Shown here piece by piece: positions 5,024 to 48,484 of a DNA stretch of 64,000 nucleotides. The position numbers and the translations under genes are program-made. Numbering within the stretch: position 1 is the first letter of the stretch; each line of letters starts with the position of its first letter. The notes below the pieces were generated by a model, which was not told where the DNA came from, searched no databases, and saw nothing but the letters and a program-made list of their open reading frames with translations. Source of the stretch: Escherichia coli (GTDB lineage: Bacteria; Pseudomonadota; Gammaproteobacteria; Enterobacterales; Enterobacteriaceae); NCBI RefSeq assembly GCF_016903815.1, contig NZ_CP069973.1. One strand, written 5' to 3'.

Positions 5024-6037
5024 ATGGCAATCAAAAAACTCGATGATGGTCGATATGAAGTGGACATTCGCCCTACTGGACGTAACGGAAAACGCATCCG
5101 TAGGAAGTTTGATAAGAAAAGCGAAGCTGTCGCTTTCGAAAAATACACGTTGTACAACCACCACAATAAAGAATGGCTATCAAAACCAACAGACAAACGA
5201 CGTCTGTCGGAACTGACACAGATCTGGTGGGATTTAAAGGGTAAACACGAAGAGCATGGGAAATCTAATCTTGGAAAAATTGAAATCTTCACAAAAATAA
5301 CGAATGACCCATGCGCATTTCAAATCACGAAATCCCTTATCAGCCAGTACTGCGCCACCCGAAGAAGTCAGGGTATTAAACCTTCGAGTATCAATCGTGA
5401 TTTAACATGTATTAGCGGCATGTTTACAGCCCTGATTGAAGCGGAGTTATTCTTTGGTGAGCACCCTATCAGAGGGACAAAGAGGCTTAAGGAGGAAAAA
5501 CCAGAAACAGGCTATCTCACACAGGAAGAAATTGCCTTACTGCTTGCAGCACTTGACGGCGACAATAAAAAGATTGCGATTCTTTGCCTGAGTACAGGAG
5601 CACGTTGGGGAGAAGCAGCTCGTTTGAAAGCAGAAAATATCATCCATAACCGCGTCACGTTTGTTAAAACGAAAACAAACAAACCACGCACCGTCCCGAT
5701 CTCAGAGGCTGTTGCCAAAATGATCGCGGATAACAAACGAGGTTTTTTATTCCCTGATGCTGATTACCCTCGCTTCAGACGAACAATGAAAGCAATAAAA
5801 CCGGATTTGCCAACGGGGCAAGCCACACATGCACTAAGGCACAGCTTTGCCACTCATTTCATGATTAATGGAGGAAGTATTATCACGCTACAACGGATAC
5901 TAGGTCACACGCGGATTGAGCAAACTATGGTTTACGCTCATTTTGCGCCAGAGTACCTTCAGGACGCCATTTCTCTTAATCCGCTAAGAGGTGGTACTGA
6001 AGCCGAGAGTGTCCACACAGTGTCCACAGTAGAGTAA
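5024..6037 (+). CDS. int: Tyrosine recombinase, P2-type integrase (337 aa)
   Basis: C-terminal HALRHSFATHF...LGHTRIEQTMVYAHF carries the R/H-x-x-R/Y catalytic signature; 337 aa as P2 Int. Confidence 0.9.
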   Translation: MAIKKLDDGRYEVDIRPTGRNGKRIRRKFDKKSEAVAFEKYTLYNHHNKEWLSKPTDKRRLSELTQIWWDLKGKHEEHGKSNLGKIEIFTKITNDPCAFQITKSLISQYCATRRSQGIKPSSINRDLTCISGMFTALIEAELFFGEHPIRGTKRLKEEKPETGYLTQEEIALLLAALDGDNKKIAILCLSTGARWGEAARLKAENIIHNRVTFVKTKTNKPRTVPISEAVAKMIADNKRGFLFPDADYPRFRRTMKAIKPDLPTGQATHALRHSFATHFMINGGSIITLQRILGHTRIEQTMVYAHFAPEYLQDAISLNPLRGGTEAESVHTVSTVE

Positions 6038-33465: not shown

Positions 33466-36400
33466 ATGAGGCACTTTATCTTTCAGGACGAAAAATCACA
33501 TAAATTCTGGGCGGTGGAGCAACAGGGAAACGAGTTGCATATCTGTTGGGGAAAAGTTGGCACCAAAGGGCAAAACCAGGTAAAAAGTTTTGCGGATGCT
33601 GCGGCAGCGGCAAAAGCGGAGCTTAAGCTGATCGCAGAGAAAACGAAAAAAGGCTATGTGGAAAATGCTTTAGCAAACGTGCATATCCCCCCCATCACCA
33701 AAGCCACTCCTGAAGTTGAAACCTCCCCTGAGAGTAAAAACAAACGCCCATGGGTGGCTGATGATGCAGTCATTCCGGTAACTGGCGATATTAATCGATT
33801 TGCTTTTCCTCATCGCTCTCGCCCCAGAGAGATCAATTATCTGTACAAAGATGGCCAAATATGGAAGCGCATCGCGAATAACACCAGGGCATATGACCCC
33901 GACAATAATTACCGCTCTTATCCTGAAAACTGGCAGCTGGCGTTTGCCGAGTTACAAAGGCGAATTCTGAATAATCAACAAACAGGAAGTATACAATCTG
34001 ATGCGGCATTGCTCTGGAATTTATGGAACTCTTACTCTACAGATGAACTGGTCGATGACTTAGTCATTCGCTGTGGTCTGGAAACTACCGTTGAAATCGC
34101 CCTTCTCGCTCTTCAACTCAAATATAAACCAGTAAAAGCCGACGTCACCACCATTATTCCCCCTGATCTCAAAGCAGAATCACTACCGAACTGGCATCAA
34201 CGTCTATGTCATCATCTTTCACTCGCTTCAGAAGATGAGTGGCAACGCTGTGTAGATAAAGTTCTCGCTGCTATTCCCTCGCTATCCCCAGCACGGCAAC
34301 CTTTTGCGGCGTTACTGCTCCCTGAACGCCCGGATATTGCCAATGCTATGGCGCTACGTTATGCAGATCAAAACGTTCCGGCGATGACCTGGTTAAGACT
34401 GGTGGTAACCGATGACGCCGCTCTGACTACAGCAGAAAAATACGACTTCCCACCGTTGTATCATGATTTTCGCGCTTATCTGGCAATGTTGCTGGCAAAT
34501 AATGGGGTGCGCGGTGTAAGCCGGATACTTCTTGAGTTTACGGAAGAGCATTCTGACAATCCCACTTATCTCTTCGAGCGCATCAGCGAGACTGAAGATC
34601 TTGTCAAATGGCTATGGAAAACGAATCACCCGGATGCGATTCAAATTCTGATCCTCGGTGTAATTGGCAAGAAAAAGCACCTGGAATACTTAAGCAAAGC
34701 CTGTCAAAAACATCCCGCTGCGGCTCTTGCCGCTTATGCAACTTTACTGGCAATACATGAAGATGCACAGTGGCGTAAAGCGCTTGTCAAACTGATTACC
34801 GCCACGCCAGATTTAGTCACTGACGTCATTCCCTGGGTTAATGCTAAAGCGGCAGGCATCTTATCTGAATGTCGTACTCAGTTAGTCGCTGAAGAATGTG
34901 AATACGCCACTGCGGATATGTTGCCGGAGCTGTTTGTCGCTCCACCGTGGGTAATAAATAAGAAAACGAATGTAATACCCGTATTTGATTTACCGGTGCT
35001 TCCCATCCCTGCAGTCACTGACATCACGCCAGGAATTACAGAGTTAATCAGTCATACTGACATATCCAGATTCAGTGAAATCGCGCAATATCAGTCATCA
35101 CAGCAAACCTTATTTACCGACCTGCCACTAATTGAAAAAGAAAGCTGGGAGACATCTTTCATTCCTTTTACACCAGAACAACAAATCCTTTGGCAATTAG
35201 GTTTTAATGAATGGCTGCATTGCGAAGATGACTTACATGAAAAAAAATATATACCGCAAAGCGCTGTTGATGCCTTGTTGCGCTTTGATTTTCCAGCACT
35301 AAAAGCTGAGTTTGCGAAATATCACAACAATGCCAACAAAAGCTGGAATCTATCTGCGCTTTGTTACTTACCGGGACAACAGGCGATTTCATTTCTCAAC
35401 CAAATAATCATTGAGGAGCGATATTCAGGTGAGAAAGAGATTCTGGCAGTTTTTGGTAGTACGGCCATTCCTGCGTTTATGACCTGCTTGCAACGAGATC
35501 ATCAACGACTGTGGATATTCACCCTCTTTATTGGGGCCAGTGAACTAGCCTTACCAATGGCGCAGCGGTTACAGAAAAAAATGGCTTACAAGGATGCCAT
35601 TAATTGGCTGGCAAATAACCCGCGCCATGCCGCCGCCGGGCTACTGCCTTTGGCGCTGGGCAAACCGTGCCAAAATCGGGAATATGCCCGCCAGGCATTC
35701 CGCCTGCTAGTGAAATTAAACCAGCGAGAAACGATTGAAGAAATCGGCCGGAGATACAACCAACCTGATGTTTTAGCTGCGCTGGCAACATTGTTCGATA
35801 GCGATCCGCTGGAAGAATATCCCGCTAAAATCGCCCCACTGCCCGGCTTTTATCAGTTCACCTTATGGCGCAGACCACGGCTTAAAAGTAACAACCTGCC
35901 TCTGCCAGATGACGCTATGCGCCACCTGGGCACAATGTTGAGCTTTCCACGCGACATTACCTCCTACGCTGGGCTGGCGACCATCAAAGAGACCTTCACC
36001 CACGAATCACTGGCTGACTTTGGCTGGGATCTCTACACGGCATGGACAGAAGCTGGCGCACCCGCAAAAGAAAACTGGGCATTTACTTCGCTTGGGATTT
36101 TAGGCAATGACGACACCGCACGTAAATTAACCCCGCTTATCCGTGCCTGGCCGGGTGAATCCCAGCATAAACGCGCGGTTTACGGGCTGGATGTATTAGC
36201 TGATATTGGCAGCGATGTTGCGCTAATGCTGCTTAATGGCATCGCGCGAAAAATTAAATTCAAAGCATTACAGGAACATGCCCGCGAGAAAATCAACATA
36301 GTTGCTGAAAACCGTGGGCTGACTATGGCTGAACTGGAAGACCGCCTGGCTCCAGATTTAGGGCTTGATAACAGTGGCTCGCTGATACTGGATTTCGGCC

Positions 36401-37263
36401 CACGTCAATTCACCGTTGGTTTTGACGAAACCTTAAAACCTGTAGTGCACGATGCAAACGGCAAAGTCCTGAAAGATTTACCCAAACCAAATCAGAGCGA
36501 TGATCAAACACTGGCAACTGACTCCGTTAACCTCTTCAAACAATTGAAGAAAGATGTGCACGCCATTGCCAGCCAGCAGATTGATCGTCTGGAGCAGGAT
36601 ATGTGCCAGCGCAGACGCTGGACGGCAGAGCAGTTCCGCCTGTTTCTGGTGGAGCATCCGCTGGTACGTCACTTAACCCGACGGGTGTTATGGGGGGTAT
36701 ATACTGAGGAAAACACGCTGATCGCCTGCTTCCGGGTCGCAGAAGACAGCACTTACAGCGATGCGCAGGATGAGTTATTCACGCTGCCAGCAGGAAACAT
36801 CGGTATACCGCATGTGCTGGAAATATCTCCTGAATCCGCCACTGCATTTGGGCAAATTTATGCTGATTACGAAAAGCTTCCTCCCTTTCGCCAACTCGAT
36901 CGTGGTTATTACCACCTTACTGATAATGAACGTGATACCCATGAATTGATACGCTGGCAAGGACGTCTTTGCCAGGCCGGGCGCATTGTCGGGCTGGAAC
37001 GTCGAGGCTGGCAACGTCTGGAAGAAAGCGGCAGCGTCTATGCGATGCGCAAATCTACCCCTTATGGCGCTCTCGAACTTGAAACAGAACATTTTTCATT
37101 AATTTATGGCGAAACGGGGTATAGCGACCTGCTACCTGTTGAAAGCGTAAAAATCACTTCACCAGGGGAACGCTACAGTACACAGCCCTCGCTCACGTTC
37201 TCCGCGCTTGATGCCATCACCGCCAGCGAACTCATTAACGACATCGAATCACTTTTTGATTAA
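33466..37263 (+). CDS. molR: MolR-family giant protein, intact (1265 aa), N-terminal WGR-like module
   Basis: N-terminus HKFWAVEQQGNELHICWGKVGTKGQ resembles the WGR fold; long helical body; first gene after the metG terminator. Confidence 0.8.
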   Translation: MRHFIFQDEKSHKFWAVEQQGNELHICWGKVGTKGQNQVKSFADAAAAAKAELKLIAEKTKKGYVENALANVHIPPITKATPEVETSPESKNKRPWVADDAVIPVTGDINRFAFPHRSRPREINYLYKDGQIWKRIANNTRAYDPDNNYRSYPENWQLAFAELQRRILNNQQTGSIQSDAALLWNLWNSYSTDELVDDLVIRCGLETTVEIALLALQLKYKPVKADVTTIIPPDLKAESLPNWHQRLCHHLSLASEDEWQRCVDKVLAAIPSLSPARQPFAALLLPERPDIANAMALRYADQNVPAMTWLRLVVTDDAALTTAEKYDFPPLYHDFRAYLAMLLANNGVRGVSRILLEFTEEHSDNPTYLFERISETEDLVKWLWKTNHPDAIQILILGVIGKKKHLEYLSKACQKHPAAALAAYATLLAIHEDAQWRKALVKLITATPDLVTDVIPWVNAKAAGILSECRTQLVAEECEYATADMLPELFVAPPWVINKKTNVIPVFDLPVLPIPAVTDITPGITELISHTDISRFSEIAQYQSSQQTLFTDLPLIEKESWETSFIPFTPEQQILWQLGFNEWLHCEDDLHEKKYIPQSAVDALLRFDFPALKAEFAKYHNNANKSWNLSALCYLPGQQAISFLNQIIIEERYSGEKEILAVFGSTAIPAFMTCLQRDHQRLWIFTLFIGASELALPMAQRLQKKMAYKDAINWLANNPRHAAAGLLPLALGKPCQNREYARQAFRLLVKLNQRETIEEIGRRYNQPDVLAALATLFDSDPLEEYPAKIAPLPGFYQFTLWRRPRLKSNNLPLPDDAMRHLGTMLSFPRDITSYAGLATIKETFTHESLADFGWDLYTAWTEAGAPAKENWAFTSLGILGNDDTARKLTPLIRAWPGESQHKRAVYGLDVLADIGSDVALMLLNGIARKIKFKALQEHAREKINIVAENRGLTMAELEDRLAPDLGLDNSGSLILDFGPRQFTVGFDETLKPVVHDANGKVLKDLPKPNQSDDQTLATDSVNLFKQLKKDVHAIASQQIDRLEQDMCQRRRWTAEQFRLFLVEHPLVRHLTRRVLWGVYTEENTLIACFRVAEDSTYSDAQDELFTLPAGNIGIPHVLEISPESATAFGQIYADYEKLPPFRQLDRGYYHLTDNERDTHELIRWQGRLCQAGRIVGLERRGWQRLEESGSVYAMRKSTPYGALELETEHFSLIYGETGYSDLLPVESVKITSPGERYSTQPSLTFSALDAITASELINDIESLFD

Positions 37264-37275: not shown

Positions 37276-40200
37276 ATGAAAACCTATATTTATCAGGACG
37301 AAAAATCACATAAATTCTGGGCGGTGGAGCAGCAGGGAAACGAACTGAATATCAGTTGGGGCAAAGTCGGCACCAACGGGCAAAGTCAGGTAAAAAGCTT
37401 TGCAGATGCTGCGGCGGCGGAAAAAGCGGAACTCAAGCTGATTGCGGAGAAAACGAAAAAGGGGTATGTGGAACATGCGGAGAATGCTACATCGAAACAT
37501 ACTCGAACGGTAACGAAATCTCTCGAATTATCTGACTTTTCTACCATCATTCAGGAACAGCCCTCAGTTACACCAGAATTCTACGTGGCTGACAAAAATA
37601 CAGACGTTATTTTACCGTGGCTGGCAAAAGATATTGCTGTCGTTTTTCCGCTTGAAGTCGTACCCACCACCTTAAGCCATCGCCGCTTTCCCGGAGATCC
37701 TGTTACACCTGTAGATAAATTAACCCAGTTACGTCGCTTAGCCTGTGGCGTGTCGCAACGGGATAACAAAACAGCTACATTTGACTTCAGCGCCTGTACT
37801 TTAGAGTGGCAAAACTTCATCGCTCAGGCGATCGATCTGATTAACAGCCCGAAAACGACAAAATTACCATCACCGGTAATGGCTGTACTCGCGGCACTTG
37901 AACTGCACTGCACGAGATATAAAGAGCGTGCGGATGTTATGGATCAGATTATTCAGGAAGGCGGTCTGGAATATGCTACTGATGTAATAATACATCTTCA
38001 ACAAATATCTATTGAATGGGATTATGTCAACAATAATATTGTTTTCCTGTCGTCTGGCATTTCACCTGATTATTTGCAGCAATATTCCAGCTTTGAATTA
38101 CGCCTACGTAAACATTTATCACTGGCGGAAGAGTCTCTCTGGCAAAAATGTGCACAAAAACTTATTGCCGCAGTTCCACATATTCCAGAATGGCGGCAAC
38201 CATTAATTGCTTTGTTATTGCCCGAAAAACCAGAAATTGCACATGAAATTGCCCAGCGTCTACTGGGGCAAAAGAAATTACCCTCGCTGGAGTGGCTAAA
38301 AATAGTGGCGACTGATGAGCACATTCTTGCCTCATTAGAAAAATATCACGAGCCATATGCCATTTTTGATGATTACTATTGTGGTGCGATATGGTCAGCC
38401 ACCGTATTACAGGAGCAAGGTGTTGCGGCCCTGCCCCGATTTGCTCCCTATGTCGCAAGTGACTACTGCGCCGATGTGTTGCGTCATATCAATCATCCGT
38501 TCGCATTAACACTGCTTATACGTGTAGCAGGGCATACTAAACGCTGTCACGATCGAATGACGAAAGCCTGCGCTGCGTTCCCACACGCAGCACTGGCAGC
38601 ACTGGCGGAACTTCTAGTGCAAAAAGAAGAGAATAGTTGGCGCATTATGCTAATGACGATGCTTATCTCGCAACCGACACTAGCAGAACAGGTCATTCCC
38701 TGGCTTTCGACACCCGCAGTTGCAGTGCTGAAATCATGCCAGCAACAACTGACACAGCCCTCAAACCATGCCAGCGCCGATCTACTGCCGGCCATAGTAG
38801 TCTCCCCACCATGGCTTTCGAAAAAGAAAAAATCGCCGATTCCAGTGCTTGATTTAGCACCATTAGGTATTGAGCCAATCAGTTATCTGACAGAAGAAAT
38901 CAGTAATCAACTTTTGGCGAAATATATCTGGTATTCAAAACACATCACGGTTAGTCATGAAGAAAGTACTGCCAATCTGTTGGCAAGGATGGGTTTTCAA
39001 CGACGGATCGCTGGTACATATATTAAAGCTCCCGAAGCGGTAGTTGAGGCATGGCTAAATGAAGATTATTCAACTTTAATAAGTGAATTTAAGGTGTTTC
39101 ATTCACCTACCGGGCATTATTGGCATTTGGGGATTTTGACAACATTGCCGCTGGAGAAAGCAGTAAGAGCATGGAATGCCCTTACTCTATCTCCGCATAC
39201 CGATACCGAATACGCCATGTTACATTTTGGACTCAAAGGATTACCTGGGTTAGTAAACTCACTTGCACGCTATCCACAGGAAGCCTTGCCCATAACGAAT
39301 TACTTCGCAGCGAGTGAGCTGGCACCTGCCGTCGCCCGCGCCTTCAACAAACTCAAAACCCTACGACAAGACGCCCGCACCTGGCTGCTGAAATACCCGG
39401 AACACGCCATTACCGGCCTGCTGTCTGCGGCGCTCGGCAAAGCCGGTGAAGCACAGGATAACGCCCGCGCTGCATTGCGTATGCTTACCGAAAACGGTCA
39501 TCAACCATTACTGCAAGAAATCGCCCGGCGTTATAACCAGCCGGAAGTAACAGATGCGGTGAACGCTATGCTTGCGCTCGATCCCTTAGATAATCACCCG
39601 ACAAAAATCCCCACTCTTCCGGCCTTTTATCAGCCATCGATCTGGACCCGCCCGGTATTAAAAGCAAATGCCCAATCACTGCCCGATAGCGCACTCCAGC
39701 ACCTCGGTGAAATGCTCCGCTTCCATCAGGAGGAGGCGCTGTATCCGGGATTATTGCAGGTGAAAGATGCCTGTACCGCCGACTCACTGGCTGAATTTGC
39801 CTGGGATCTGTTTACCGCCTGGCAGACCGCTGGCGCGCCGTCGAAAGAGAGTTGGGCGTTCACTGCGTTAGGCGTTCTCGGTAACGATGACACCGCCCGC
39901 AAACTGACGCCATTAATACGCGCCTGGCCTGGTGAATCCCAGCATAAACGCGCCACCGTCGGGCTGGATATCCTCGCCGCTATCAGTAGTGATATCGCCC
40001 TGATGCAGCTTAACGGCATTGCCCAGAAACTGAAATTCAAAGCATTACAGGAGCGGGCGAAAGAGAAAATTGCCGACATTGCCGAAAGTCGCGAACTGAC
40101 GGTAGCGGAGCTTGAAGATCGGTTAGCACCGGCTCTCGGTCTGGATGATAACGGTTCGCTGCTGCTGGATTTTGGCCCACGGCAGTTCACCGTCAGCTTT

Positions 40201-41070
40201 GATGAAACCTTAAAACCGTTTGTGCGCGATGTTTCCGGCAGCCGCCTGAAAGACTTACCTAAACCCAATAAAAGCGATGATGAATCACAGGCAAACGATG
40301 CTGTTAACCGCTACAAATTGCTGAAAAAAGATGCGCGTACCGTCGCCGCCCAGCAGGTAGCAAGGCTGGAATCCGCCATGTGCCTGCGCCGCCGCTGGTC
40401 GCCGGAAAACTTTCAGCTCTTCCTGGTTGAGCATCCGCTGGTTCGTCACTTAACCCGCCGTCTGATTTGGGGCGTTTATAGCGCCGAAAACCAGCTACAG
40501 GCGTGCTTTAGGGTGGCGGAAGATAACAGCTACAGCACCGCTGACGATGATCTTTTCACCTTGCAGGAAGGCGATATCTCTGTTGGCATTCCTCACGTTC
40601 TGGAAATATCACCGACGGATGCTGTCGCCTTTGGTCAGCTTTTTGCCGACTACGAACTGCTACCACCGTTCCGTCAGCTTGAACGTAACAGTTACGCCCT
40701 GACAGAAGCCGAGCGCAACGCCAGCGAACTGACCCGCTGGGCAGGCAGAAAATGCCCGAGCGGCCGGGTCATGGGGCTGGCAAATAAAGGCTGGATAAAG
40801 GGCGAACCACAGGATGGAGGCTGGATCGGATGGATGATCAAACCTCTCGGTCGCTGGTCGTTAATCATGGAAATCGACGAAGGTTTTGCGGTGGGTATGT
40901 CACCAGCCGATCTTAGCGCTGAGCAGGTCTTAAGCAAGCTGTGGCTATGGGAAGGCAAAGCGGAAAGCTATGGCTGGGGGAGTAATTCAACTCAGGAAGC
41001 GCAGTTCTCCGTGCTCGACGACATCACCGCCAGCGAACTCATTAACGATATTGAAGCCCTGTTTGAATAA
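37276..41070 (+). CDS. yehI: MolR paralog (1264 aa), N-terminal WGR-like module
   Basis: Collinear homology to molR along its length; near-identical N- and C-terminal ends; 12-nt gap after molR stop with AAGGA RBS. Confidence 0.8.
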   Translation: MKTYIYQDEKSHKFWAVEQQGNELNISWGKVGTNGQSQVKSFADAAAAEKAELKLIAEKTKKGYVEHAENATSKHTRTVTKSLELSDFSTIIQEQPSVTPEFYVADKNTDVILPWLAKDIAVVFPLEVVPTTLSHRRFPGDPVTPVDKLTQLRRLACGVSQRDNKTATFDFSACTLEWQNFIAQAIDLINSPKTTKLPSPVMAVLAALELHCTRYKERADVMDQIIQEGGLEYATDVIIHLQQISIEWDYVNNNIVFLSSGISPDYLQQYSSFELRLRKHLSLAEESLWQKCAQKLIAAVPHIPEWRQPLIALLLPEKPEIAHEIAQRLLGQKKLPSLEWLKIVATDEHILASLEKYHEPYAIFDDYYCGAIWSATVLQEQGVAALPRFAPYVASDYCADVLRHINHPFALTLLIRVAGHTKRCHDRMTKACAAFPHAALAALAELLVQKEENSWRIMLMTMLISQPTLAEQVIPWLSTPAVAVLKSCQQQLTQPSNHASADLLPAIVVSPPWLSKKKKSPIPVLDLAPLGIEPISYLTEEISNQLLAKYIWYSKHITVSHEESTANLLARMGFQRRIAGTYIKAPEAVVEAWLNEDYSTLISEFKVFHSPTGHYWHLGILTTLPLEKAVRAWNALTLSPHTDTEYAMLHFGLKGLPGLVNSLARYPQEALPITNYFAASELAPAVARAFNKLKTLRQDARTWLLKYPEHAITGLLSAALGKAGEAQDNARAALRMLTENGHQPLLQEIARRYNQPEVTDAVNAMLALDPLDNHPTKIPTLPAFYQPSIWTRPVLKANAQSLPDSALQHLGEMLRFHQEEALYPGLLQVKDACTADSLAEFAWDLFTAWQTAGAPSKESWAFTALGVLGNDDTARKLTPLIRAWPGESQHKRATVGLDILAAISSDIALMQLNGIAQKLKFKALQERAKEKIADIAESRELTVAELEDRLAPALGLDDNGSLLLDFGPRQFTVSFDETLKPFVRDVSGSRLKDLPKPNKSDDESQANDAVNRYKLLKKDARTVAAQQVARLESAMCLRRRWSPENFQLFLVEHPLVRHLTRRLIWGVYSAENQLQACFRVAEDNSYSTADDDLFTLQEGDISVGIPHVLEISPTDAVAFGQLFADYELLPPFRQLERNSYALTEAERNASELTRWAGRKCPSGRVMGLANKGWIKGEPQDGGWIGWMIKPLGRWSLIMEIDEGFAVGMSPADLSAEQVLSKLWLWEGKAESYGWGSNSTQEAQFSVLDDITASELINDIEALFE

Positions 41071-41079
41071 GGAAAGAGC

Positions 41080-43278
41080 ATGGACAAGGAATTACCGTGG
41101 CTGGCGGATAACGCCCAAGTGGAACTGAAATATAAAAAAGGCAAAACGCCGCTCAGCCATCGCAGTTGGCCGGGCGAACCGGTGCCTGTTATCACTGAAA
41201 GCCTCATCCAGACACTGGGTGATGAATTGCTACAAAAAGCTGAGAAGAAAAAAAACATTGTCTGGCGTTATGAAAATTTTTCACTGGAGTGGCAGTCGGC
41301 CATTACGCAGGCCATCAACTTGATTGGCGAACACAAACCCTCAGTTCCGGCCCGGACAATGGCGGCGCTAGCCTGTATCGCGCAAAATGATAGCCAACAG
41401 TTGCTCGACGAAATCGTCCAACAAGAGGGACTGGAATATGCGACTGAGGTGGTGATTGCACGCCAGTTTATTACACGATGTTATGAAAGTGATCCTCTGC
41501 TAGTGACATTGCAGTATCAGAACGAGGATTATGGCTATGGTTATCGATCAGAAACCTATAACGAATTCGATCTCCGACTGCGTAAGCATCTCTCTCTGGC
41601 AGAGGAAAGCAGCTGGCAGCGTTGCGCCGACAAACTCATTGCCGCACTGCCAGGAATAACCAAAGTTCGCCGCCCTTTTATTGCTCTGATCCTCCCGGAA
41701 AAACCAGAAATCGCCAATGAGTTGGTAAGCCTTGAATGCCCGTGGACTCATTTTCATTCTAAGGAGTGGTTAAAAGTTGTTGCTATTGACCCCAGAGCGG
41801 TGAGAAAACTCGAACGCTACTGGAGCCAGGATATATTTAGCGATCGGGAAGCCAGCTACATGTCGCATGAAAACCACTTCGGCTACGCGGCCTGCGCTGC
41901 CCTTTTGCGCGAACAAGGACTGGCAGCCGTTCCACGCCTGGCAATGTATGCCCATAAAGAAGATTGCGGCAGTCTGCTGGTACAAATTAACCATCCGCAG
42001 GTCATCCGCACCCTGCTGTTAGTTGCTGATAAAAACAAACCCAGCCTGCAACGTGTAGCTAAATACAGTAAAAATTTCCCCCATGCGACGCTTGCCGCAC
42101 TGGCAGAACTGCTGGCGCTAAAAGAACCACCTACGCGCCCTGGTTATCCAATCATCGAAGACAAAAAGCTGCCTGCACAGCAAAAAGCACGTGATGAATA
42201 CTGGCGTACGCTGTTACAAACGCTGATGGCATCGCAGCCACAACTGGCAGAAGAGGTGATGCCGTGGTTAAGTACTCAAGCCCGGTCAGTGCTGAATAGT
42301 TATTTATCGGCACCGCCTAAAACGGTTATTGATAGCACCGATAACAGCCAAATGCCTGAAATCCTCGTTTCACCACCGTGGCGTAGTAAGAAAAAAATGA
42401 CAGTTCCACGTCTTGATTTGGCACCGTTCGAATTAACGCCGCAAGTTTACTGGCAACCAGGCGAACGAGAGAGGCTTGCCGCCACTGAGTCTGCCCGTTA
42501 TTTCAGCACGGAATCTCTTGCGGAACGCATGGAACATAAAAGTGGACGAGTTGTACTACAGGAGCTGGGTTTTGGAGATGATGTATGGCTGTTTCTGAAT
42601 TATATACTCCCCGGAAAACTGGATGCTGCACGCAATTCACTCATTGTTCAGTGGCATTACTACCAGGGGCGGGTTGAAGAGATCCTGAATGGCTGGAACT
42701 CCCCGGAAGCACAATTAGCAGAACAGGCGCTTCGCAGCGGTCACGTAGAAGTGTTAATTAACATATGGGAAAATGACAGCTACTCACGCTATCGTCGGGA
42801 AAAGAGTATCTGGAACCTGTATTTATTGGCACAGTTGCCGCGTGAGATGGCTTTGACTTTCTGGCTACGTATCAATGAGAAAAAGCATCTGTTCGCGGGT
42901 GAGGACTATTTTCTCAGTATCTTCGGATTGGATGCTCTACCAGGTCTGCTGTTGGCTTTTTCACATCGTCCAAAAGAAACATTTCCGTTAATTTTAAATT
43001 TTGGCGCAACAGAACTGGCCCTGCCCGTTGCCCGCGTCTGGCGACGTTTCGCGGCGCAGCGTGATCTGGCTCGCCAGTGGATTTTACAATGGCCGGAACA
43101 TACGGCTACTGCACTTATCCCTCTTGTCTTCACCAAATCCAGCGATAATAGCGAAGCTGCATTACTTGCCCTACGTTTACTTTACGAACAGGGACATGGT
43201 GAATTGCTGCAAACCGCGGCAAACCGCTGGCAGCGTACAGATGTATGGCCTGCCCCGGTCTGGCAAAACTGGTGCTGA
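41080..43278 (+). CDS. Third MolR/YehI-family paralog (732 aa), no WGR module, ends at TGA
   Basis: Aligns to YehI residues ~100-800 (LPWLA, LRLRKHLSLAEES, PEKPEIA, VSPPW.SKKK blocks); starts 10 nt after yehI stop with AAGGAAAGA RBS; no P-loop. Confidence 0.6.
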   Translation: MDKELPWLADNAQVELKYKKGKTPLSHRSWPGEPVPVITESLIQTLGDELLQKAEKKKNIVWRYENFSLEWQSAITQAINLIGEHKPSVPARTMAALACIAQNDSQQLLDEIVQQEGLEYATEVVIARQFITRCYESDPLLVTLQYQNEDYGYGYRSETYNEFDLRLRKHLSLAEESSWQRCADKLIAALPGITKVRRPFIALILPEKPEIANELVSLECPWTHFHSKEWLKVVAIDPRAVRKLERYWSQDIFSDREASYMSHENHFGYAACAALLREQGLAAVPRLAMYAHKEDCGSLLVQINHPQVIRTLLLVADKNKPSLQRVAKYSKNFPHATLAALAELLALKEPPTRPGYPIIEDKKLPAQQKARDEYWRTLLQTLMASQPQLAEEVMPWLSTQARSVLNSYLSAPPKTVIDSTDNSQMPEILVSPPWRSKKKMTVPRLDLAPFELTPQVYWQPGERERLAATESARYFSTESLAERMEHKSGRVVLQELGFGDDVWLFLNYILPGKLDAARNSLIVQWHYYQGRVEEILNGWNSPEAQLAEQALRSGHVEVLINIWENDSYSRYRREKSIWNLYLLAQLPREMALTFWLRINEKKHLFAGEDYFLSIFGLDALPGLLLAFSHRPKETFPLILNFGATELALPVARVWRRFAAQRDLARQWILQWPEHTATALIPLVFTKSSDNSEAALLALRLLYEQGHGELLQTAANRWQRTDVWPAPVWQNWC

Positions 43279-43332
43279 CAGTGGGGCTTACAGCAGGCGG
43301 GAGAACAACTGCTAAAAACGGTTCTCACCCGT

Positions 43333-44772
43333 TTGCGCCAGCACCACTTGCCTGCTTCGACCGCGGATATGGCTGCCGCTCATCTGCATGCGATGGCGCT
43401 GGCACAGTTGCGCGGACATAAACTACCGTTACGCACTGACTGGCTGGATGCCATAGCAGGCTCGCTGATTAAAGAAGCCCTGAACGCGCCGTTGCCGTGG
43501 AGCTATCGCGGCGTTATTCATCCCGACACCGATCCGATTCTGCTAACGTTGATAGACACATTAGCGGGTGACGGATTCGGTAAACTTGCCCCTTCTACGC
43601 CACAACCGCCTCTGCCAAAAGATGTCACCTGCGAACTGGAACGTACCGCAATCTCTCTTCCGGCGGAGCTTACCTTAAATCGCTTTAACCCCAATGGACT
43701 AGCGCAAAGTCAGGTGTTACATCGGCTGGCAATACTGGAGATCCCAGGGATTGTACGCCAGCAGGGAAGCACACTGACACTTGCAGGCAACGGTGAAGAA
43801 CAGTGGAAATTAACCCGCCCGCTTAGCCAGCATGCGGCATTGATTGAGGCCGCCTGCTTTGGTGCCACACTCCAGGAAGCCGCACGCCATAAATTAGAAG
43901 CCGATATGCTGGACGCGGGTGGAATCGGCAGTATCACCACATGTCTTAGCCAGGCGGCGTTAGCGGGTCTGGCGTCCTTCAGTCAACAATTATTGGAGCA
44001 ACTCACATTATTAATCGCCCAGGAAAATCAATTTGCCGAAATGGGCCAGGCGCTGGAAGTGCTATATGCCTTATGGCGGCTGGATGAAATTAGCGGTATG
44101 CAAGGCGCGCAGATATTACAAACGACGTTATGCGCGGCTATCGATCGCACGCTGTGGCTGTGTGAATCTAACGGCAGACCAGATGAAAAGGAGTTTCACG
44201 CTCACCTGCATAGCTGGCAGGCGCTTTGCCATATCCTGCGCGATCTACATAGCGGCGTTAATTTACCCGGCGTTTCTCTTTCTGCGGCGGTAGCCTTACT
44301 GGACCGCCGCAGTCAAGCGATTCATGCCCCGGCGCTGGATCGCGGCGCGGCTCTTGGCGCACTGATGCGTCTGGAACATCCCAACGCCAGTGCCGAAGCG
44401 GCGCTGACAATGCTGGCGCAGTTATCCCCGGCACAATCCGGCGAAGCGCTGCACGGTTTGCTGGCGCTGGCCCGCCATCAACTGGCCTGTCAGCCGGCAT
44501 TTATCGCCGGTTTCAGTAGTCATTTAAATCAACTGAGTGACGACGATTTTATTAACGCCCTGCCCGATTTACGCGCGGCGATGGCCTGGCTACCACCACG
44601 AGAACGCGGGACGCTGGCGCATCAGGTGCTTGAGCATTATCAACTGGCGCAACTTCCCGTTTCGGCACTGCAAATGCCGTTGCATTGTCCACCACAAGCC
44701 ATTGCACATCATCAACAACTCGAACAGCAGGCACTGGCATCGCTGCAACACTGGGGAGTTTTCCATGTCTGA
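43333..44772 (+). CDS. Ala/Leu-rich protein, start uncertain (TTG 43333 or ATG 43369); same frame as upstream paralog
   Basis: 479-aa ORF unrelated to the MolR C-terminal domain; overlaps yehP start by 8 nt. May correspond to the C-terminal part of K-12 yehM (recollection, unverified). Confidence 0.5.
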   Translation: MRQHHLPASTADMAAAHLHAMALAQLRGHKLPLRTDWLDAIAGSLIKEALNAPLPWSYRGVIHPDTDPILLTLIDTLAGDGFGKLAPSTPQPPLPKDVTCELERTAISLPAELTLNRFNPNGLAQSQVLHRLAILEIPGIVRQQGSTLTLAGNGEEQWKLTRPLSQHAALIEAACFGATLQEAARHKLEADMLDAGGIGSITTCLSQAALAGLASFSQQLLEQLTLLIAQENQFAEMGQALEVLYALWRLDEISGMQGAQILQTTLCAAIDRTLWLCESNGRPDEKEFHAHLHSWQALCHILRDLHSGVNLPGVSLSAAVALLDRRSQAIHAPALDRGAALGALMRLEHPNASAEAALTMLAQLSPAQSGEALHGLLALARHQLACQPAFIAGFSSHLNQLSDDDFINALPDLRAAMAWLPPRERGTLAHQVLEHYQLAQLPVSALQMPLHCPPQAIAHHQQLEQQALASLQHWGVFHV

Positions 44773-45901
44773 ACTGAACGATCTTCTGACCACCCGTGAG
44801 CTACAACGCTGGCGATTAATTCTTGGCGAAGCGGCAGAAACGACGCTTTGTGGGCTGGATGACAACGCCCGGCAGATAGACCACGCGCTGGAGTGGCTGT
44901 ATGGGCGCGATCCTGAACGGCTCCAGCGTGGTGAACGCTCCGGTGGATTAGGTTGCTCAAATCTCACCACCCCTGAGTGGATCAACAGTATTCACACGCT
45001 GTTTCCGCAACAGGTGATTGAACGGCTGGAAAGCGATGCCGTACTGCGCTACGGCATTGAAGATGTGGTGACGAATCTCGACGTGCTGGAACGTATGCAG
45101 CCTTCTGAAAGCCTGCTACGCGCCGTTTTGCACACCAAACATCTGATGAATCCCGAAGTACTGGCTGCCGCCCGCCGGATAGTACGCCAGGTTGTTGAAG
45201 AAATTATGGCGCGACTGGCAAAGGAAGTTCGTCAGGCTTTTTCTGGTGTCCGCGATCGCCGTCGCCGCTCATTTATTCCACTGGCGCGAAACTTTGATTT
45301 CAAAAGTACGCTGCGCGCCAACCTGCAACACTGGCACCCGCAACACGGCAAGTTGTATATCGAATCCCCCCGCTTTAACAGCCGCATTAAACGCCAAAGC
45401 GAACAATGGCAACTGGTCTTACTGGTTGATCAAAGCGGATCAATGGTGGACTCGGTGATCCACTCAGCGGTGATGGCGGCCTGTTTATGGCAGTTACCCG
45501 GTATTCGTACCCATCTGGTGGCGTTTGACACCAGCGTGGTTGATCTCACGGCAGATGTTGCCGATCCGGTAGAGTTATTAATGAAAGTGCAATTAGGCGG
45601 CGGAACCAATATCGCCAGTGCCATGGAATATGGTCGGCAACTTATTGAACAACCAGTGAAAAGCGTCATTATCCTCGTGAGCGATTTTTACGAAGGGGGT
45701 TCATCATCATTACTGACGCATCAGGTGAAAAAGTGTGTCCAGAGCGGCATCAAAGTGCTGGGACTGGCGGCGCTCGATAGCACCGCAACACCTTGCTATG
45801 ACCACGATACGGCCCAGGCGCTGGTTAATGTCGGCGCACAAATAGCCGCCATGACACCGGGCGAGCTGGCATCATGGCTTGCGGAGAATCTTCAGTCATG
45901 A
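44765..45901 (+). CDS. yehP: von Willebrand factor A domain protein
   Basis: 378 aa from MSELNDLL; MIDAS-like DQSGSM...GGTN...SDF. Confidence 0.8.
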   Translation: MSELNDLLTTRELQRWRLILGEAAETTLCGLDDNARQIDHALEWLYGRDPERLQRGERSGGLGCSNLTTPEWINSIHTLFPQQVIERLESDAVLRYGIEDVVTNLDVLERMQPSESLLRAVLHTKHLMNPEVLAAARRIVRQVVEEIMARLAKEVRQAFSGVRDRRRRSFIPLARNFDFKSTLRANLQHWHPQHGKLYIESPRFNSRIKRQSEQWQLVLLVDQSGSMVDSVIHSAVMAACLWQLPGIRTHLVAFDTSVVDLTADVADPVELLMKVQLGGGTNIASAMEYGRQLIEQPVKSVIILVSDFYEGGSSSLLTHQVKKCVQSGIKVLGLAALDSTATPCYDHDTAQALVNVGAQIAAMTPGELASWLAENLQS

Positions 45902-47898
45902 ATTCACTACGTCCGGAATTATTAGAACTGACACCACAAGCTTTGACGGCGTTAAGCAATGCCGGTTTTGTTAAGCGCAGCCTTAAAGAACTGGAAAATG
46001 GCAACGTCCCGGAAATCAGCCATGAGAACGGCGCTTTAATCGCCACCTTCAGTGACGGTGTCCGCACCCAGCTGGCGAACGGTCAGGCACTGAAAGAGGC
46101 TCAGTGCAGCTGCGGGGCCAGCGGCATGTGCCGCCATCGCGTGATGCTGGTTTTAAGTTATCAGCGACTTTGCGCCACCACCCAGCCTACGGAAAAAGAA
46201 GAAGAGTGGGATCCGGCAATCTGGCTGGAAGAACTGGCTACCCTGCCCGATGCCACCCGCAAACGCGCGCAGGCACTGGTCGCTAAAGGTATCACCATTG
46301 AGTTGTTCTGTACGCCGGGCGAAATTCCCTCTGCCCGCTTACCGATGAGCGATGTACGTTTTTATTCCCGCAGCAGCATTCGTTTCGCACGCTGTGATTG
46401 TATTGAAGGAACACTTTGCGAACATGTCGTACTGGCAGTACAGGCCTTTGTCCAGGCCAAAGCGCAGCAAGCGGAATTTACTCATTTAATCTGGCAGATG
46501 CGCAGCGAACACGTCACATCATCTGACGATCCGTTTGCCAACGATGAGGGCGACGCGTGTCGTCAATATGTTCAGCAATTAAGCCAGGCGTTATGGCTTG
46601 GCGGCATCAGCCAGCCGCTTATTCATTACGAGGCTGCTTTCAGCCGCGCGCAGCAAGCGGCGGAACGCTGCAACTGGCGATGGGTGAGTGAATCGCTACG
46701 GCAACTGCGCGCCAGCGTTGATGCCTTCCACGCCCGCGCCAGCCACTATCATGCCGGAGAATGCTTACGTCAGCTTGCGGCATTAAACAGTCGATTAAAT
46801 TGCGCACAAGAGATGGCGCGGCGCGACAGTGTTGGTGAAGTTCCTCCGATGCCGTGGCGCACGGTCGTTGGCGCTGGCATTGCCGGAGAAGCAAAGCTTG
46901 ATCATCTGCGGCTGGTGTCTTTAGGTATGCGTTGCTGGCAGGATATTGAGCAGTATGGTTTACGCATCTGGTTCACCGATCCCGACACCGGCAGTATTTT
47001 GCACCTTTCGCGCAGTTGGCCGCGAAGTGAACAGGAAAACTCACCGGCAGCGACGCGTCGGCTATTTAGTTTTCAGGCTGGCGCACTGGCAGGTGGGCAA
47101 ATTGTTTCACAAGCAGCAAAACGCAGTGCCGATGGCGAGCTGTTGTTAGCTACCCGCAACCGCTTGAGTAGTGTTGTGCCGCTGTCGCCAGACGCCTGGC
47201 AAATGTTGAGCGCGCCATTGCGCCAGCCGGGCATTGTGGCTTTGCGGGAATATTTACGCCAGCGTCCCCCCGCCTGCATACGGCCTCTTAATCAGGTGGA
47301 TAACTTATTTATTCTGCCAGTCGCTGAGTGTATTTCACTCGGTTGGGATAGCAGCCGCCAGACGCTGGATGCGGAGGTAATCAGCGGCGAAGGTGAAGAT
47401 AACGTGCTGACATTATCCCTACCAGCCTCTGCCTGTTCGCCCTTTGCTGTTGAACGCATGGCAGCTCTGTTACAACAAACAGAGGACCCCGTGAGTATGG
47501 TTTCTGGCTTTGTCAGTTTTGTAGAGGGGCAATTGACACTGGAACCACAGGTAATGATGACAAAGACTCGTGCCTGGGCTCTGGACGCAGAAACTACGCC
47601 TGTGGCACCGCTACCTTCTGCCAGCGTTTTGCCTGTGCCGTCTACCGCTCATCAGTTGCTGATGCGCTGCCAGGCGTTACTTATTCAACTGCTCCATAAC
47701 GGCTGGCGCTATCAGGAACAGAGTGCTATTGGTCAGGCAGAGTTGCTGGCGAATGACCTCACCGCGGTGGGTTTTTATCGGCTGGCACATGTGTTGGCAC
47801 AATTTCGTAATACAGAAAGCGAGGCACGGGTAGAAGCAATGAATAACGGTGTTTTGCTTTGCGAACAATTATTCCCCATGCTTCAGCAACAAGGATGA
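45898..47898 (+). CDS. yehQ: SWIM zinc-finger protein, two SWIM motifs
   Basis: ATGA overlap with yehP; CSCGASGMCRHRV and CDCIEGTLCEHVV are both CxCx(n)CxH. Confidence 0.8.
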   Translation: MNSLRPELLELTPQALTALSNAGFVKRSLKELENGNVPEISHENGALIATFSDGVRTQLANGQALKEAQCSCGASGMCRHRVMLVLSYQRLCATTQPTEKEEEWDPAIWLEELATLPDATRKRAQALVAKGITIELFCTPGEIPSARLPMSDVRFYSRSSIRFARCDCIEGTLCEHVVLAVQAFVQAKAQQAEFTHLIWQMRSEHVTSSDDPFANDEGDACRQYVQQLSQALWLGGISQPLIHYEAAFSRAQQAAERCNWRWVSESLRQLRASVDAFHARASHYHAGECLRQLAALNSRLNCAQEMARRDSVGEVPPMPWRTVVGAGIAGEAKLDHLRLVSLGMRCWQDIEQYGLRIWFTDPDTGSILHLSRSWPRSEQENSPAATRRLFSFQAGALAGGQIVSQAAKRSADGELLLATRNRLSSVVPLSPDAWQMLSAPLRQPGIVALREYLRQRPPACIRPLNQVDNLFILPVAECISLGWDSSRQTLDAEVISGEGEDNVLTLSLPASACSPFAVERMAALLQQTEDPVSMVSGFVSFVEGQLTLEPQVMMTKTRAWALDAETTPVAPLPSASVLPVPSTAHQLLMRCQALLIQLLHNGWRYQEQSAIGQAELLANDLTAVGFYRLAHVLAQFRNTESEARVEAMNNGVLLCEQLFPMLQQQG

Positions 47899-47975
47899 AA
47901 TAGTGTTTTTTACTAAGAGTTCCACTCCAGTTCCGGACTGCTCACGCCACGGTATTAGGCATATCCTATATAGCC

Positions 47976-47999
47976 CCTGGTGAGAGTCACCAGTTTCTT
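47976..47999 (+). terminator. Intrinsic terminator after yehQ
   Basis: Hairpin CTGGTGA-GAG-TCACCAG followed by TTTCTTG. Confidence 0.5.
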
Positions 48000-48022
48000 G
48001 ATTAAATAAAATGGAGTTTTAC

Positions 48023-48484
48023 ATGAAGGCTTTCAATAAGCTGTTTTCCCTCGTTGTTGCATCTGTTCTGGTTTTCTCTCTTGCTGGCTGCGGTGACAAA
48101 GAAGAATCGAAAAAATTCAGCGCCAATCTGAACGGTACTGAAATTGCCATTACCTATGTCTACAAAGGTGACAAGGTGCTTAAGCAATCTTCTGAAACCA
48201 AAATTCAATTTGCCTCCATTGGTGCAACCACCAAAGAAGACGCTGCCAAGACACTTGAGCCGTTAAGCGCCAAATACAAAAACATCGCGGGTGTTGAAGA
48301 AAAATTAACCTATACCGATACTTACGCGCAGGAAAACGTGACTATCGATATGGAAAAAGTGGATTTCAAAGCCCTGCAGGGTATTTCAGGAATCAACGTT
48401 TCTGCTGAAGATGCCAAAAAAGGTATCACTATGGCGCAAATGGAACTGGTGATGAAAGCCGCTGGTTTTAAAGAAGTGAAATAA
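48023..48484 (+). CDS. yehR: Lipoprotein YehR
   Basis: MKAFNKLFSLVVASVLVFSLAGC lipobox. Confidence 0.8.
   Translation: MKAFNKLFSLVVASVLVFSLAGCGDKEESKKFSANLNGTEIAITYVYKGDKVLKQSSETKIQFASIGATTKEDAAKTLEPLSAKYKNIAGVEEKLTYTDTYAQENVTIDMEKVDFKALQGISGINVSAEDAKKGITMAQMELVMKAAGFKEVK

What the first reader, a model, noticed from the sequence alone, without database searches (positions are those of the whole stretch)
41080..44772. Third paralog lacks the WGR module and is separated from the next ORF by a single in-frame TGA
The 732-aa ORF aligns to YehI from about residue 100 to 800 and stops at TGA 43276..43278 while homology is still running. The following 479-aa ORF is in the same frame and has no convincing ATG/SD start (TTG 43333, or ATG 43369 with a weak RBS). 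This is either a nonsense-interrupted ~1230-aa gene, a strain-specific pseudogenisation, or a real two-gene boundary. Gene lengths I recall for K-12 yehK/yehL/yehM (105/362/759 aa) sum to nearly this interval, so the locus may be parsed differently in the reference, but I cannot verify that from memory.
Basis: partly seen in the sequence, partly recalled or inferred. Interest (0 to 1): 0.6.

Follow-up and report, generated by a model that had tools for sequence, protein, structure and literature searches.

The report
Deletion scar fusing yehI to yehM
The two back-to-back reading frames are not a split third paralog but the leftovers of a roughly 4-kb deletion that joined the front of yehI to the back of the unrelated gene yehM, followed by a stop-codon mutation; this is an ordinary clone-specific pseudogene that RefSeq already flags.

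Summary
The ORFs, their shared frame and the TGA at 43276-43278 are as described. The interpretation needs replacing.

- **Upstream ORF.** The 732-aa ORF is YehI itself, residues 1-725 (94% aa identity to K-12 YehI), plus 7 codons of yehM.
- **Downstream ORF.** The sequence after the TGA is YehM residues 263-759 (97% identity). It has no similarity to the YehI/MolR paralogs.
- **The deletion.** It measures 4,264 bp against the closest undeleted strain (C1) and 4,003 bp against K-12. It lies between two copies of a 7-bp microhomology (CCTGCCC). It removed the DUF4132-encoding 3' part of yehI, yehK, the zorO/orzO type I toxin-antitoxin locus, yehL and the first 254 codons of yehM.
- **The stop codon.** The join happens to be in frame. 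Seven codons later, yehM codon 262 is TGA instead of TGG (Trp).
- **Distribution.** The identical junction occurs in 94 of 5,426 complete E. coli genomes, several of which the literature assigns to ST405, and in two gut-metagenome contigs. No carrier with TGG was found.
- **Existing annotation.** PGAP annotates both pieces as pseudogene fragments.

There is no sign of an independent start, a promoter, a SECIS-like structure or conservation of the TGA. Whether the nonsense mutation came before or after the deletion is unresolved. The junction also coincides with the right edge of a ~22-kb tract shared with strain C1. Low interest.

The parts
41080..43254 (+). yehI 5' fragment, codons 1-725. It lacks the C-terminal 485 codons, including the DUF4132 domain.
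   Evidence: Window 37275-43255 aligns colinearly to K-12 molR plus yehI nt 1-2176. BLASTP gives 679/725 identical to K-12 YehI 1-725. Pfam finds no domain. DUF4132 in K-12 YehI maps to residues 954-1138, in the deleted part. PGAP in the 100%-identical strain 7/2 says 'incomplete; missing C-terminus'.
43249..43255 (+). Deletion junction: the single retained copy of the 7-bp microhomology CCTGCCC. It encodes Pro-Ala in both yehI (P724-A725) and yehM (P253-A254).
   Evidence: Three-way alignments with K-12 and strain C1. C1 yehI reads ...GTATGGCCTGCCC|TGGAG and C1 yehM reads ...GGTATGCCTGCCC|CGGTC. The deleted segment is L003 11177-15440 (4,264 bp) or K-12 L002 11177-15179 (4,003 bp).
43256..43275 (+). 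yehM codons 255-261 (P V W Q N W C), read in frame with yehI to form the last 7 residues of the 732-aa ORF.
   Evidence: Frame arithmetic and translation. K-12 YehM reads ...MPAPVWQNWCWQWGL; the window reads ...VWPAPVWQNWC*QWGL.
43276..43278 (+). TGA nonsense codon at yehM codon 262. The codon is TGG (Trp) in undeleted alleles.
   Evidence: K-12 has TGG and C1 and NMBU_W05E18 have TGG. Three undeleted metagenome contigs with the same local 61-nt haplotype have TGG, and two deletion-bearing contigs have TGA. A junction query with TGG substituted finds no 100% match; the best is 99.4%.
43279..44772 (+). yehM 3' fragment, codons 263-759 plus the stop. It contains the mechanical 479-aa ORF that starts at TTG 43333 (YehM residue 281).
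   Evidence: BLASTP gives 484/497 identical to K-12 YehM 263-759. DUF5682 spans YehM 20-715, so the domain is truncated. PGAP says 'internal stop; incomplete; missing N-terminus'.
44765..45901 (+). yehP (vWA domain protein, 378 aa). It is intact, and its start overlaps the yehM stop by 8 nt.
   Evidence: Annotation of strain 7/2; ORF list.
45898..47898 (+). yehQ (SWIM zinc-finger protein, 666 aa), intact here.
   Evidence: Annotation of strain 7/2; ORF list.
37276..41070 (+). Second paralog (1264 aa, WGR plus DUF4132).
   Evidence: Colinear with the K-12 pseudogene L002 5196-8991. Pfam WGR 7-69 and DUF4132 988-1173.
33466..37263 (+). First paralog (1265 aa, DUF4132 family with a WGR-like N-terminus). 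It is an accessory gene absent from K-12.
   Evidence: K-12 matches only window 33002-33662 and then 37275 onward. The gene is present in 1,629-1,650 of 5,426 genomes with alleles 87-100% identical.

Best explanation
Window 41080-44772 is a deletion scar in the E. coli molR-yehI-yehK-yehL-yehM-yehP-yehQ cluster.

In an ancestor of one clone, an illegitimate recombination event joined two copies of the heptamer CCTGCCC, one in yehI (codons 724-726) and one in yehM (codons 253-255). Carriers named in the literature are ST405. About 4.26 kb was lost: the 3' 1,457 nt of yehI (including DUF4132), yehK, the zorO/orzO type I toxin-antitoxin locus, yehL and the first 763 nt of yehM.

By chance the join is in frame. 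The yehI frame therefore runs into yehM, but it ends seven codons later at TGA, a TGG-to-TGA (Trp262 to stop) mutation in yehM. What remains is two non-functional gene fragments:
- a 732-aa ORF made of YehI 1-725 plus 7 YehM residues;
- an open but start-less remnant of YehM 263-759.

Shown here: the breakpoints, the microhomology, the lost content, the ancestral codon and the restriction to one lineage. Inferred: that neither fragment has a function, and that the mechanism was RecA-independent slippage or illegitimate joining. The order of the deletion and the nonsense mutation is not resolved.
For: - Colinearity with K-12 breaks exactly at 43255/43256, with a 4,003-bp gap. Against the nearest undeleted strain, C1, the gap is 4,264 bp.
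- The 7-bp repeat CCTGCCC is present at both ends in C1 and once in the window.
- The protein identities are YehI 1-725 at 94% and YehM 263-759 at 97%, with no similarity of the latter to the paralog.
- The deleted segment in C1 holds yehK, a 29-aa ZorO ORF, OrzO (Rfam RF02083, 101 bits), yehL and the yehM 5' end. Rfam finds nothing in window 33000-48500. Fozo et al. 2010 (PMC2887945) place the z3289/z3290 toxin genes and their sRNAs between yehI and yehL.
- Codon 262 is TGG in K-12, C1, NMBU_W05E18 and three undeleted metagenome contigs. It is TGA in the window and both deletion-bearing metagenome contigs.
- The identical junction is in 94 of 5,426 complete genomes, and all 60 listed rows are 100% identical over 160 nt. 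No carrier matches a TGG version.
- PGAP independently calls both pieces partial pseudogenes.
- Carriers 50579417, WCHEC96200 and WCHEC4533 are described as or grouped with ST405 (PMC6046176, PMC5762679, PMC9037040).
- No promoter-like site lies near the downstream ORF, and there is no unusual RNA structure after the TGA (z = -1.2).
Against: - Loss of function is inferred from truncated domains and missing start signals, not measured.
- The 1.5-kb yehM remnant is still open after the TGA in all carriers. This is expected for a recent clonal event but does not prove it is untranslated.
- No undeleted genome with the carriers' own downstream haplotype (at least 99% identity) was found; the next best is 97.0%. 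The immediate progenitor is therefore unsampled, and the order of the TGA and the deletion is unknown.
- 97 genomes cover at least 80% of the 3.7-kb query but only 94 cover the 160-nt junction. The three discrepant genomes were not examined.
Confidence: 0.93

Rival explanations
1. One-step homology-facilitated illegitimate recombination (HFIR). The clone's ancestor imported a C1-like DNA segment of at least 22 kb. Its left end was resolved by homologous recombination near window position ~21,000. Its right end, which stopped inside yehI, was joined illegitimately at the 7-bp microhomology in the recipient's yehM. The deletion would then have been created in the same event. This is a rival for how the scar formed, not for what it is.
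For: Window ~21,000-43,255 differs from strain C1 by only about 7 mismatches in 22 kb. The left flank (8,000-21,000) is 1-2% divergent, and the sequence immediately right of the junction is ~3% divergent (17-18 mismatches per 500 nt from 43,256 on). The haplotype switch therefore coincides with the junction at the available resolution. The downstream haplotype is unique to carriers: 95 records at 99% or more, next best 97.0%.
Against: An ordinary homologous-recombination boundary anywhere within the 4.26 kb that was later deleted would look the same. The direction of transfer (into this clone or into the C1 lineage) was not determined. C1 was selected because it matched the yehI part best, so a shared tract ending somewhere to the right of it is expected.
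Confidence: 0.25
2. A nonsense-interrupted third full-length (~1230-aa) YehI/MolR-type paralog.
For: The two ORFs share a frame, are separated by one TGA and together come close to the 1210-1265 aa of the paralogs.
Against: The 497 codons after the TGA have no similarity to the 1264-aa paralog (best E = 3.1) and are 97% identical to YehM 263-759. DUF4132, the family's defining domain, is absent. The length match is coincidental.
Confidence: 0.01
3. A genuine two-gene boundary: a shortened YehI-like protein followed by an independently translated N-terminally truncated YehM (from TTG 43333 or ATG 43369) that still works with YehP and YehQ.
For: The downstream frame stays open for 479-497 codons in all carriers. 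yehP and yehQ are intact, and yehP overlaps the end of this frame by 8 nt.
Against: - No promoter-like site was found, and the candidate starts are internal yehM codons.
- DUF5682 (YehM residues 20-715) loses its first ~260 residues.
- The AAA+ partner yehL is deleted.
- The carriers are a single near-identical clone (99% or more), so an open frame carries no evidence of selection.
- PGAP calls it a pseudogene.
Confidence: 0.03
4. A functional or tolerated read-through product. UGA followed by C is a weak stop context in E. coli, and tRNA-Trp can misread UGA (general knowledge, not tested here). A small amount of a 1,230-aa YehI(1-725)-YehM(255-759) chimera carrying the ancestral Trp could therefore be made.
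For: The fusion is in frame, the stop is TGA-C, and the ancestral residue is Trp.
Against: - The TGA is not conserved outside the deletion carriers.
- No SECIS-like or otherwise unusual structure follows it (z = -1.2).
- The chimera lacks DUF4132 and the N-terminal third of DUF5682.
- Nothing suggests selection for it.
Confidence: 0.03

Closest known systems
E. coli K-12 yehI (DUF4132 domain-containing protein YehI, 1210 aa)
   Same: Window 41080-43255 is orthologous to yehI nt 1-2176: 95% nt identity and 94% aa identity over residues 1-725. It has the same start, the same 9-nt spacing after the preceding paralog and the same lack of a WGR domain.
   Different: The last 485 codons, including DUF4132 at residues 954-1138, are deleted. 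The ORF ends in 7 yehM-derived codons.
E. coli K-12 yehM (DUF5682 family protein, 759 aa)
   Same: Window 43256-44772 is orthologous to yehM nt 764-2280, with 97% aa identity over residues 263-759. The 8-nt overlap with yehP is the same.
   Different: The first 254 codons are missing, and codon 262 is TGA instead of TGG.
RefSeq/PGAP annotation of E. coli strain 7/2 (NZ_CP023820.1), loci CRT46_RS12260 and CRT46_RS26565
   Same: The sequence is 100% identical over the finding. Both pieces are annotated as partial pseudogenes, the second with 'internal stop'.
   Different: PGAP labels the first piece only 'hypothetical protein'. It does not state that the two pieces are joined by a deletion, what was lost, or the microhomology.
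Microhomology-mediated (short-direct-repeat) deletions in bacterial genomes
   Same: A 7-bp direct repeat flanks the lost segment in the progenitor-like strain, and one copy remains at the junction.
   Different: Nothing unusual, apart from the coincidence with a haplotype switch that leaves an HFIR origin open.
zorO-orzO type I toxin-antitoxin locus (Fozo et al. 2010, PMC2887945)
   Same: It occupies the yehK-yehL spacer in most E. coli. In strain C1 a ZorO ORF and OrzO RNA are present there.
   Different: It is absent from the window because it lay inside the deleted segment. K-12 also lacks it, according to that paper.

Membership tests
YehI / DUF4132 family | Orthology to YehI over the N-terminal region | tested here: met
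   679/725 residues identical to K-12 YehI 1-725; colinear DNA alignment.
YehI / DUF4132 family | Presence of the DUF4132 domain (PF13569) | tested here: not met
   Pfam finds no domain in the 732-aa ORF. In K-12 YehI the domain lies at residues 954-1138, inside the deletion.
YehM / DUF5682 family | Orthology to YehM | tested here: met
   484/497 residues identical to K-12 YehM 263-759.
YehM / DUF5682 family | Complete DUF5682 domain in an uninterrupted ORF with its own start | tested here: not met
   DUF5682 spans YehM 20-715, but only codons 255-759 remain, interrupted at codon 262. PGAP says 'missing N-terminus; internal stop'.
Third full-length WGR/DUF4132 paralog split by a nonsense codon | The downstream ORF is homologous to the C-terminal half of the paralogs | tested here: not met
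   BLASTP of the 497 aa against the 1264-aa paralog gives a best E of 3.1.
Programmed UGA recoding (selenocysteine or conserved read-through) | TGA conserved at this codon in orthologues | tested here: not met
   The codon is TGG in K-12, C1, NMBU_W05E18 and three metagenome contigs.
Programmed UGA recoding (selenocysteine or conserved read-through) | Stable stem-loop directly downstream of the UGA | tested here: not met
   The fold of 43270-43340 gives -23.9 kcal/mol against a shuffle mean of -20.6, z = -1.21.
Programmed UGA recoding (selenocysteine or conserved read-through) | A read-through product is detectable | not testable with these tools
   Needs proteomics or ribosome profiling of a carrier strain.
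Microhomology-mediated deletion | A short direct repeat at both breakpoints in the undeleted state, with one copy retained | tested here: met
   CCTGCCC occurs in C1 yehI and C1 yehM and once at window 43249-43255.
Microhomology-mediated deletion | Single origin (identical junction in all carriers) | tested here: met
   94 genomes carry the junction. All 60 listed rows are 100% identical over 160 nt, and 96 records are in the 99%-or-more band. Two metagenome contigs have the same junction.
Homology-facilitated illegitimate recombination | A donor-type tract ending exactly at the illegitimate junction, with import and deletion on the same branch | tested here: inconclusive
   The haplotype switch coincides with the junction. 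A homologous boundary hidden inside the deleted 4.26 kb cannot be excluded, and no branch-level analysis was possible.

The most novel reading that the evidence does not exclude
The scar may be the footprint of a single homology-facilitated illegitimate recombination event, in which the ST405 ancestor imported a ~22-kb segment from a C1-like lineage. The TGA seven codons after the in-frame junction may then have been selected (or created by error-prone repair synthesis) because it silences a 1,230-aa YehI-YehM chimera. Residual UGA-C read-through would re-insert the ancestral Trp.
Probability: 0.08. Interest if true: 0.35.

Novelty: already known. Interest (0 to 1): 0.1.

Why it matters
It matters little biologically. 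It shows that one E. coli clone has lost the middle of the poorly understood molR/yehI-yehQ cluster (MoxR-like AAA+ ATPase yehL, DUF5682, the DUF4132 part of yehI) together with the zorO/orzO toxin-antitoxin locus, while keeping yehP and yehQ. ST405 strains are among the carriers.

Practical value:
- The exact junction sequence is a clean clone-specific marker.
- The case warns that two same-frame ORFs separated by one stop codon can be a chimera of unrelated genes rather than a split gene.
- Together with the pseudogenes seen in K-12 (molR, yehQ) and in C1 (yehL, yehM), it adds to evidence that this cluster decays repeatedly in E. coli.

Tried and rejected
- **Split third paralog:** rejected by BLASTP of the downstream ORF against the paralog.
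- **TGA predating the deletion:** I looked for undeleted genomes with TGA. The closest undeleted strains (C1, NMBU_W05E18) do have a yehM internal stop, but at codon 224, with TGG at codon 262. A composite query designed to rank undeleted genomes first found none closer than 97.4%. A metagenome scan with an A/G-degenerate pattern found three undeleted contigs, all TGG, but these are only ~97% related. The order of events stays open.
- **Carriers with an uninterrupted in-frame fusion (TGG):** none found.
- **Defence-system assignment for the yeh proteins:** PADLOC gave no hits for any of 9 proteins. NCBIfam gave only weak sub-threshold domain hits, namely a WGR-like N-terminus, a GvpN/MoxR-like ATPase for YehL and a vWA-like region for YehP.
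- **Literature on the function of yehI, yehL, yehM, yehP and yehQ:** nothing functional was found beyond BglJ-RcsB activation of the molR promoter (PMC3950696) and the zorO/orzO placement (PMC2887945). Two searches returned mostly irrelevant author-name hits.
- **Recoding signal:** no significant structure after the TGA.
- **Internal promoter for the downstream ORF:** none found.
- **A literature check linking the O102:H6 serotype to ST405:** ST405 membership of several carriers was taken instead from papers that name the strains.
Full report
**Observation.** The ORF table confirms an ATG-initiated 732-aa ORF at 41080..43278 and a TTG-initiated 479-aa ORF at 43333..44772 in the same frame. The sequence shows TGA at 43276-43278 followed by C. 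Two larger paralogous ORFs lie upstream, at 33466..37263 (1265 aa) and 37276..41070 (1264 aa). The raw description is therefore correct.

**Where the region comes from.** Megablast against 5,426 complete E. coli genomes gave a 100% match over the whole interval to strain 7/2 (NZ_CP023820.1).
- In almost all other genomes only the first 2,176-2,179 nt match, and they lie under the gene annotated yehI. A second, separate place matches the remainder.
- Only 97 genomes have one place covering at least 80% of the interval.
- In strain 7/2, PGAP annotates the interval as two pseudogene fragments. One is 'hypothetical protein, incomplete, missing C-terminus'. The other is 'DUF5682 family protein, internal stop, incomplete, missing N-terminus'. 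Intact yehP and yehQ follow.
- K-12 has the order metG, molR pseudogene, yehI (1210 aa), yehK, yehL, yehM (759 aa, DUF5682), yehP, yehQ.

**The breakpoints.**
- BLASTN of the window against the K-12 locus gives two colinear blocks. Window 37275-43255 equals the K-12 molR pseudogene plus yehI nt 1-2176. Window 43248-48252 equals yehM from nt 756 through yehP and yehQ. The K-12 sequence between them, 4,003 bp, is missing.
- A three-way base alignment places the join in a short repeat.
- Strain C1 (NZ_CP010116.1) is the closest undeleted genome, with 3 mismatches in the 11 kb upstream. Using C1, the repeat is the exact heptamer CCTGCCC. C1 yehI reads ...GTATGGCCTGCCC|TGGAG and C1 yehM reads ...GGTATGCCTGCCC|CGGTC. 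The window keeps one copy at 43249-43255.
- In C1 coordinates the lost segment is L003 11177-15440, 4,264 bp.

**What the two ORFs are.**
- The 732-aa ORF is 679/725 identical to K-12 YehI residues 1-725.
- Its relationship to the 1264-aa ORF is only paralogous: 34% identity over residues 110-758.
- The 497 codons after the TGA are 484/497 identical to K-12 YehM 263-759 and have no similarity to the paralog (best E = 3.1).
- yehI contributes 2,176 nt (725 codons plus 1 nt), and yehM resumes at the second base of codon 255. The fusion is therefore in frame by accident. The ORF reads ...D V W P A | P V W Q N W C stop.
- The stop is yehM codon 262, which is TGG (Trp) in K-12 and in C1 and NMBU_W05E18.

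**Domains.**

| Protein | Pfam result |
|---|---|
| 732-aa ORF | no domain |
| K-12 YehI | DUF4132 at residues 954-1138 (from the scan of residues 701-1210), in the deleted part |
| 1264-aa paralog | WGR 7-69 and DUF4132 988-1173 |
| K-12 YehM | DUF5682 at 20-715, so only about the last 60% survives in the window |

The missing WGR module is a normal property of YehI, because K-12 YehI begins at the same MDKELPWL.

**What was lost.** In C1 the deleted segment contains:
- the yehI 3' end;
- yehK;
- a 29-aa ORF, MDTLTQKLTVLIAVLELLVALLRLIDLLK, on the minus strand;
- an OrzO antitoxin RNA (Rfam RF02083, 101 bits against a gathering score of 60);
- yehL;
- the yehM 5' end.

Fozo et al. 2010 (PMC2887945) describe the small toxin genes z3289/z3290 and their sRNAs between yehI and yehL in most E. 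coli, but not in MG1655. Rfam finds nothing in window 33000-48500. The toxin-antitoxin locus went with the deletion.

**Distribution and the TGA.**
- A 160-nt junction query finds full-length matches in 94 genomes. All 60 listed rows are 100% identical, TGA included, and 96 records fall in the 99%-or-more band.
- The same query with TGG substituted finds no perfect match; the best is 99.4%, which is the one TGA mismatch. No complete genome therefore carries an uninterrupted fusion.
- Several carriers are described in the literature as ST405 or grouped with ST405 genomes: 50579417 (PMC6046176), WCHEC96200 (PMC5762679, ST405, phylogroup D) and WCHEC4533 (PMC9037040). One carrier record is serotyped O102:H6.
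- An exact-pattern scan of metagenome contigs with an A/G ambiguity at the third codon position found five contigs. Two carry the deletion junction with TGA. Three have undeleted yehM with TGG. The three undeleted ones are only ~97% identical to the window downstream, so they are not the immediate progenitor.
- In complete genomes the carriers' downstream haplotype (43256-47900) is unique. 95 records are at 99% or more, and the next best is 97.0%. A composite query designed to rank undeleted genomes first found nothing better than 97.4%.
- Whether Trp262-to-stop preceded, accompanied or followed the deletion therefore cannot be settled. In the C1 lineage yehL is frameshifted and yehM has a different stop, at codon 224. 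In K-12, molR and yehQ are pseudogenes. Prior decay of the operon is thus plausible.

**Mechanism of formation.** The minimal explanation is a RecA-independent deletion between 7-bp direct repeats. One further observation leaves a second route open.
- The window and C1 are nearly identical from about 21,000 to 43,255, with about 7 mismatches in 22 kb.
- They diverge by 1-2% to the left (8,000-21,000) and by ~3% immediately to the right of the junction.
- This fits homology-facilitated illegitimate recombination, in which an imported fragment is anchored by homology on the left and joined at microhomology on the right.
- It fits equally well an ordinary homologous crossover that lay within the 4.26 kb removed later. 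I give HFIR about 0.25.

**Function.** I found no evidence that either fragment is functional.
- No sigma-70-like promoter lies in 42900-43700.
- The candidate starts at 43333 and 43369 are internal yehM codons.
- RNA folding downstream of the TGA is unremarkable (z = -1.21).
- The TGA is not conserved outside the carriers.
- UGA-C is known as a leaky context, and tRNA-Trp can misread UGA (textbook knowledge, not tested here). Trace amounts of a YehI(1-725)-YehM(255-759) chimera are conceivable, but it would lack DUF4132 and a third of DUF5682.
- yehP overlaps the end of the yehM frame by 8 nt. Loss of translational coupling may lower yehP and yehQ expression; this is inference.

**Context of the cluster.**
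- PADLOC models hit none of the yeh proteins.
- NCBIfam gives only sub-threshold domain-level hits.
- The only functional literature retrieved is that BglJ-RcsB activates the molR promoter (PMC3950696).

The function of the cluster is still unknown. That does not affect the verdict on this finding.

**Verdict.** The finding is a real sequence feature but an ordinary one: a clone-specific microhomology deletion plus a nonsense codon. It leaves two pseudogene fragments that RefSeq already marks as such.
- The 'split ~1230-aa paralog' and 'two-gene boundary' options are not supported.
- Interest 0.1; novelty: already known.

Noticed in passing
window 33466-37263: The first of the three paralogs (1265 aa) is an accessory gene. 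K-12 lacks it, matching only window 33002-33662 and then 37275 onward. It is present in 1,629-1,650 of 5,426 complete genomes, with alleles ranging from 87% to 100% identity. The 5' ends of paralogs 1 and 2 (33474-33668 and 37284-37478) are 87.7% identical over 195 nt. They could mediate gain or loss of paralog 1 by homologous recombination.
   Followed up: partly
window ~21,000-43,255: A ~22-kb tract is nearly identical (about 7 mismatches) to strain C1. It is flanked by 1-2% divergence on the left and ~3% on the right. This is a shared recombination tract whose right edge coincides with the deletion junction.
   Followed up: partly
window 43256-47900 (yehM 3' end, yehP, yehQ): This haplotype is unique to the deletion carriers: 95 records at 99% or more, next best 97.0%. 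Across E. coli the locus is unusually polymorphic, with most genomes 94-97% identical to the window.
   Followed up: partly
L003 13590-16957 (strain C1); L004 (NMBU_W05E18); L002 (K-12): The cluster shows independent decay in other lineages. In C1 and NMBU_W05E18, yehL is frameshifted and yehM has a stop at codon 224. In K-12, molR is frameshifted with an internal stop and yehQ has an internal stop according to PGAP.
   Followed up: partly
L003 13068-13157 (-) and 13403-13478 (+): A single zorO-like 29-aa toxin ORF and an OrzO sRNA (RF02083, 101 bits) sit in the yehK-yehL spacer of strain C1. The window lineage lost this site with the deletion. Whether another copy exists elsewhere in the carrier genomes was not checked.
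   Followed up: partly
window 1-6116: This stretch has no megablast match to the corresponding region of strain C1. It contains a 337-aa tyrosine recombinase/integrase-like ORF (5024..6037, sub-threshold XerD/XerC-type hits) and two ORFs of 701 and 166 aa with no NCBIfam match. It may be a small integrated element.
   Followed up: partly
window 44765-44772: The yehP start overlaps the yehM stop by 8 nt, as in K-12. This suggests translational coupling that the upstream TGA and deletion would disrupt.
   Followed up: no
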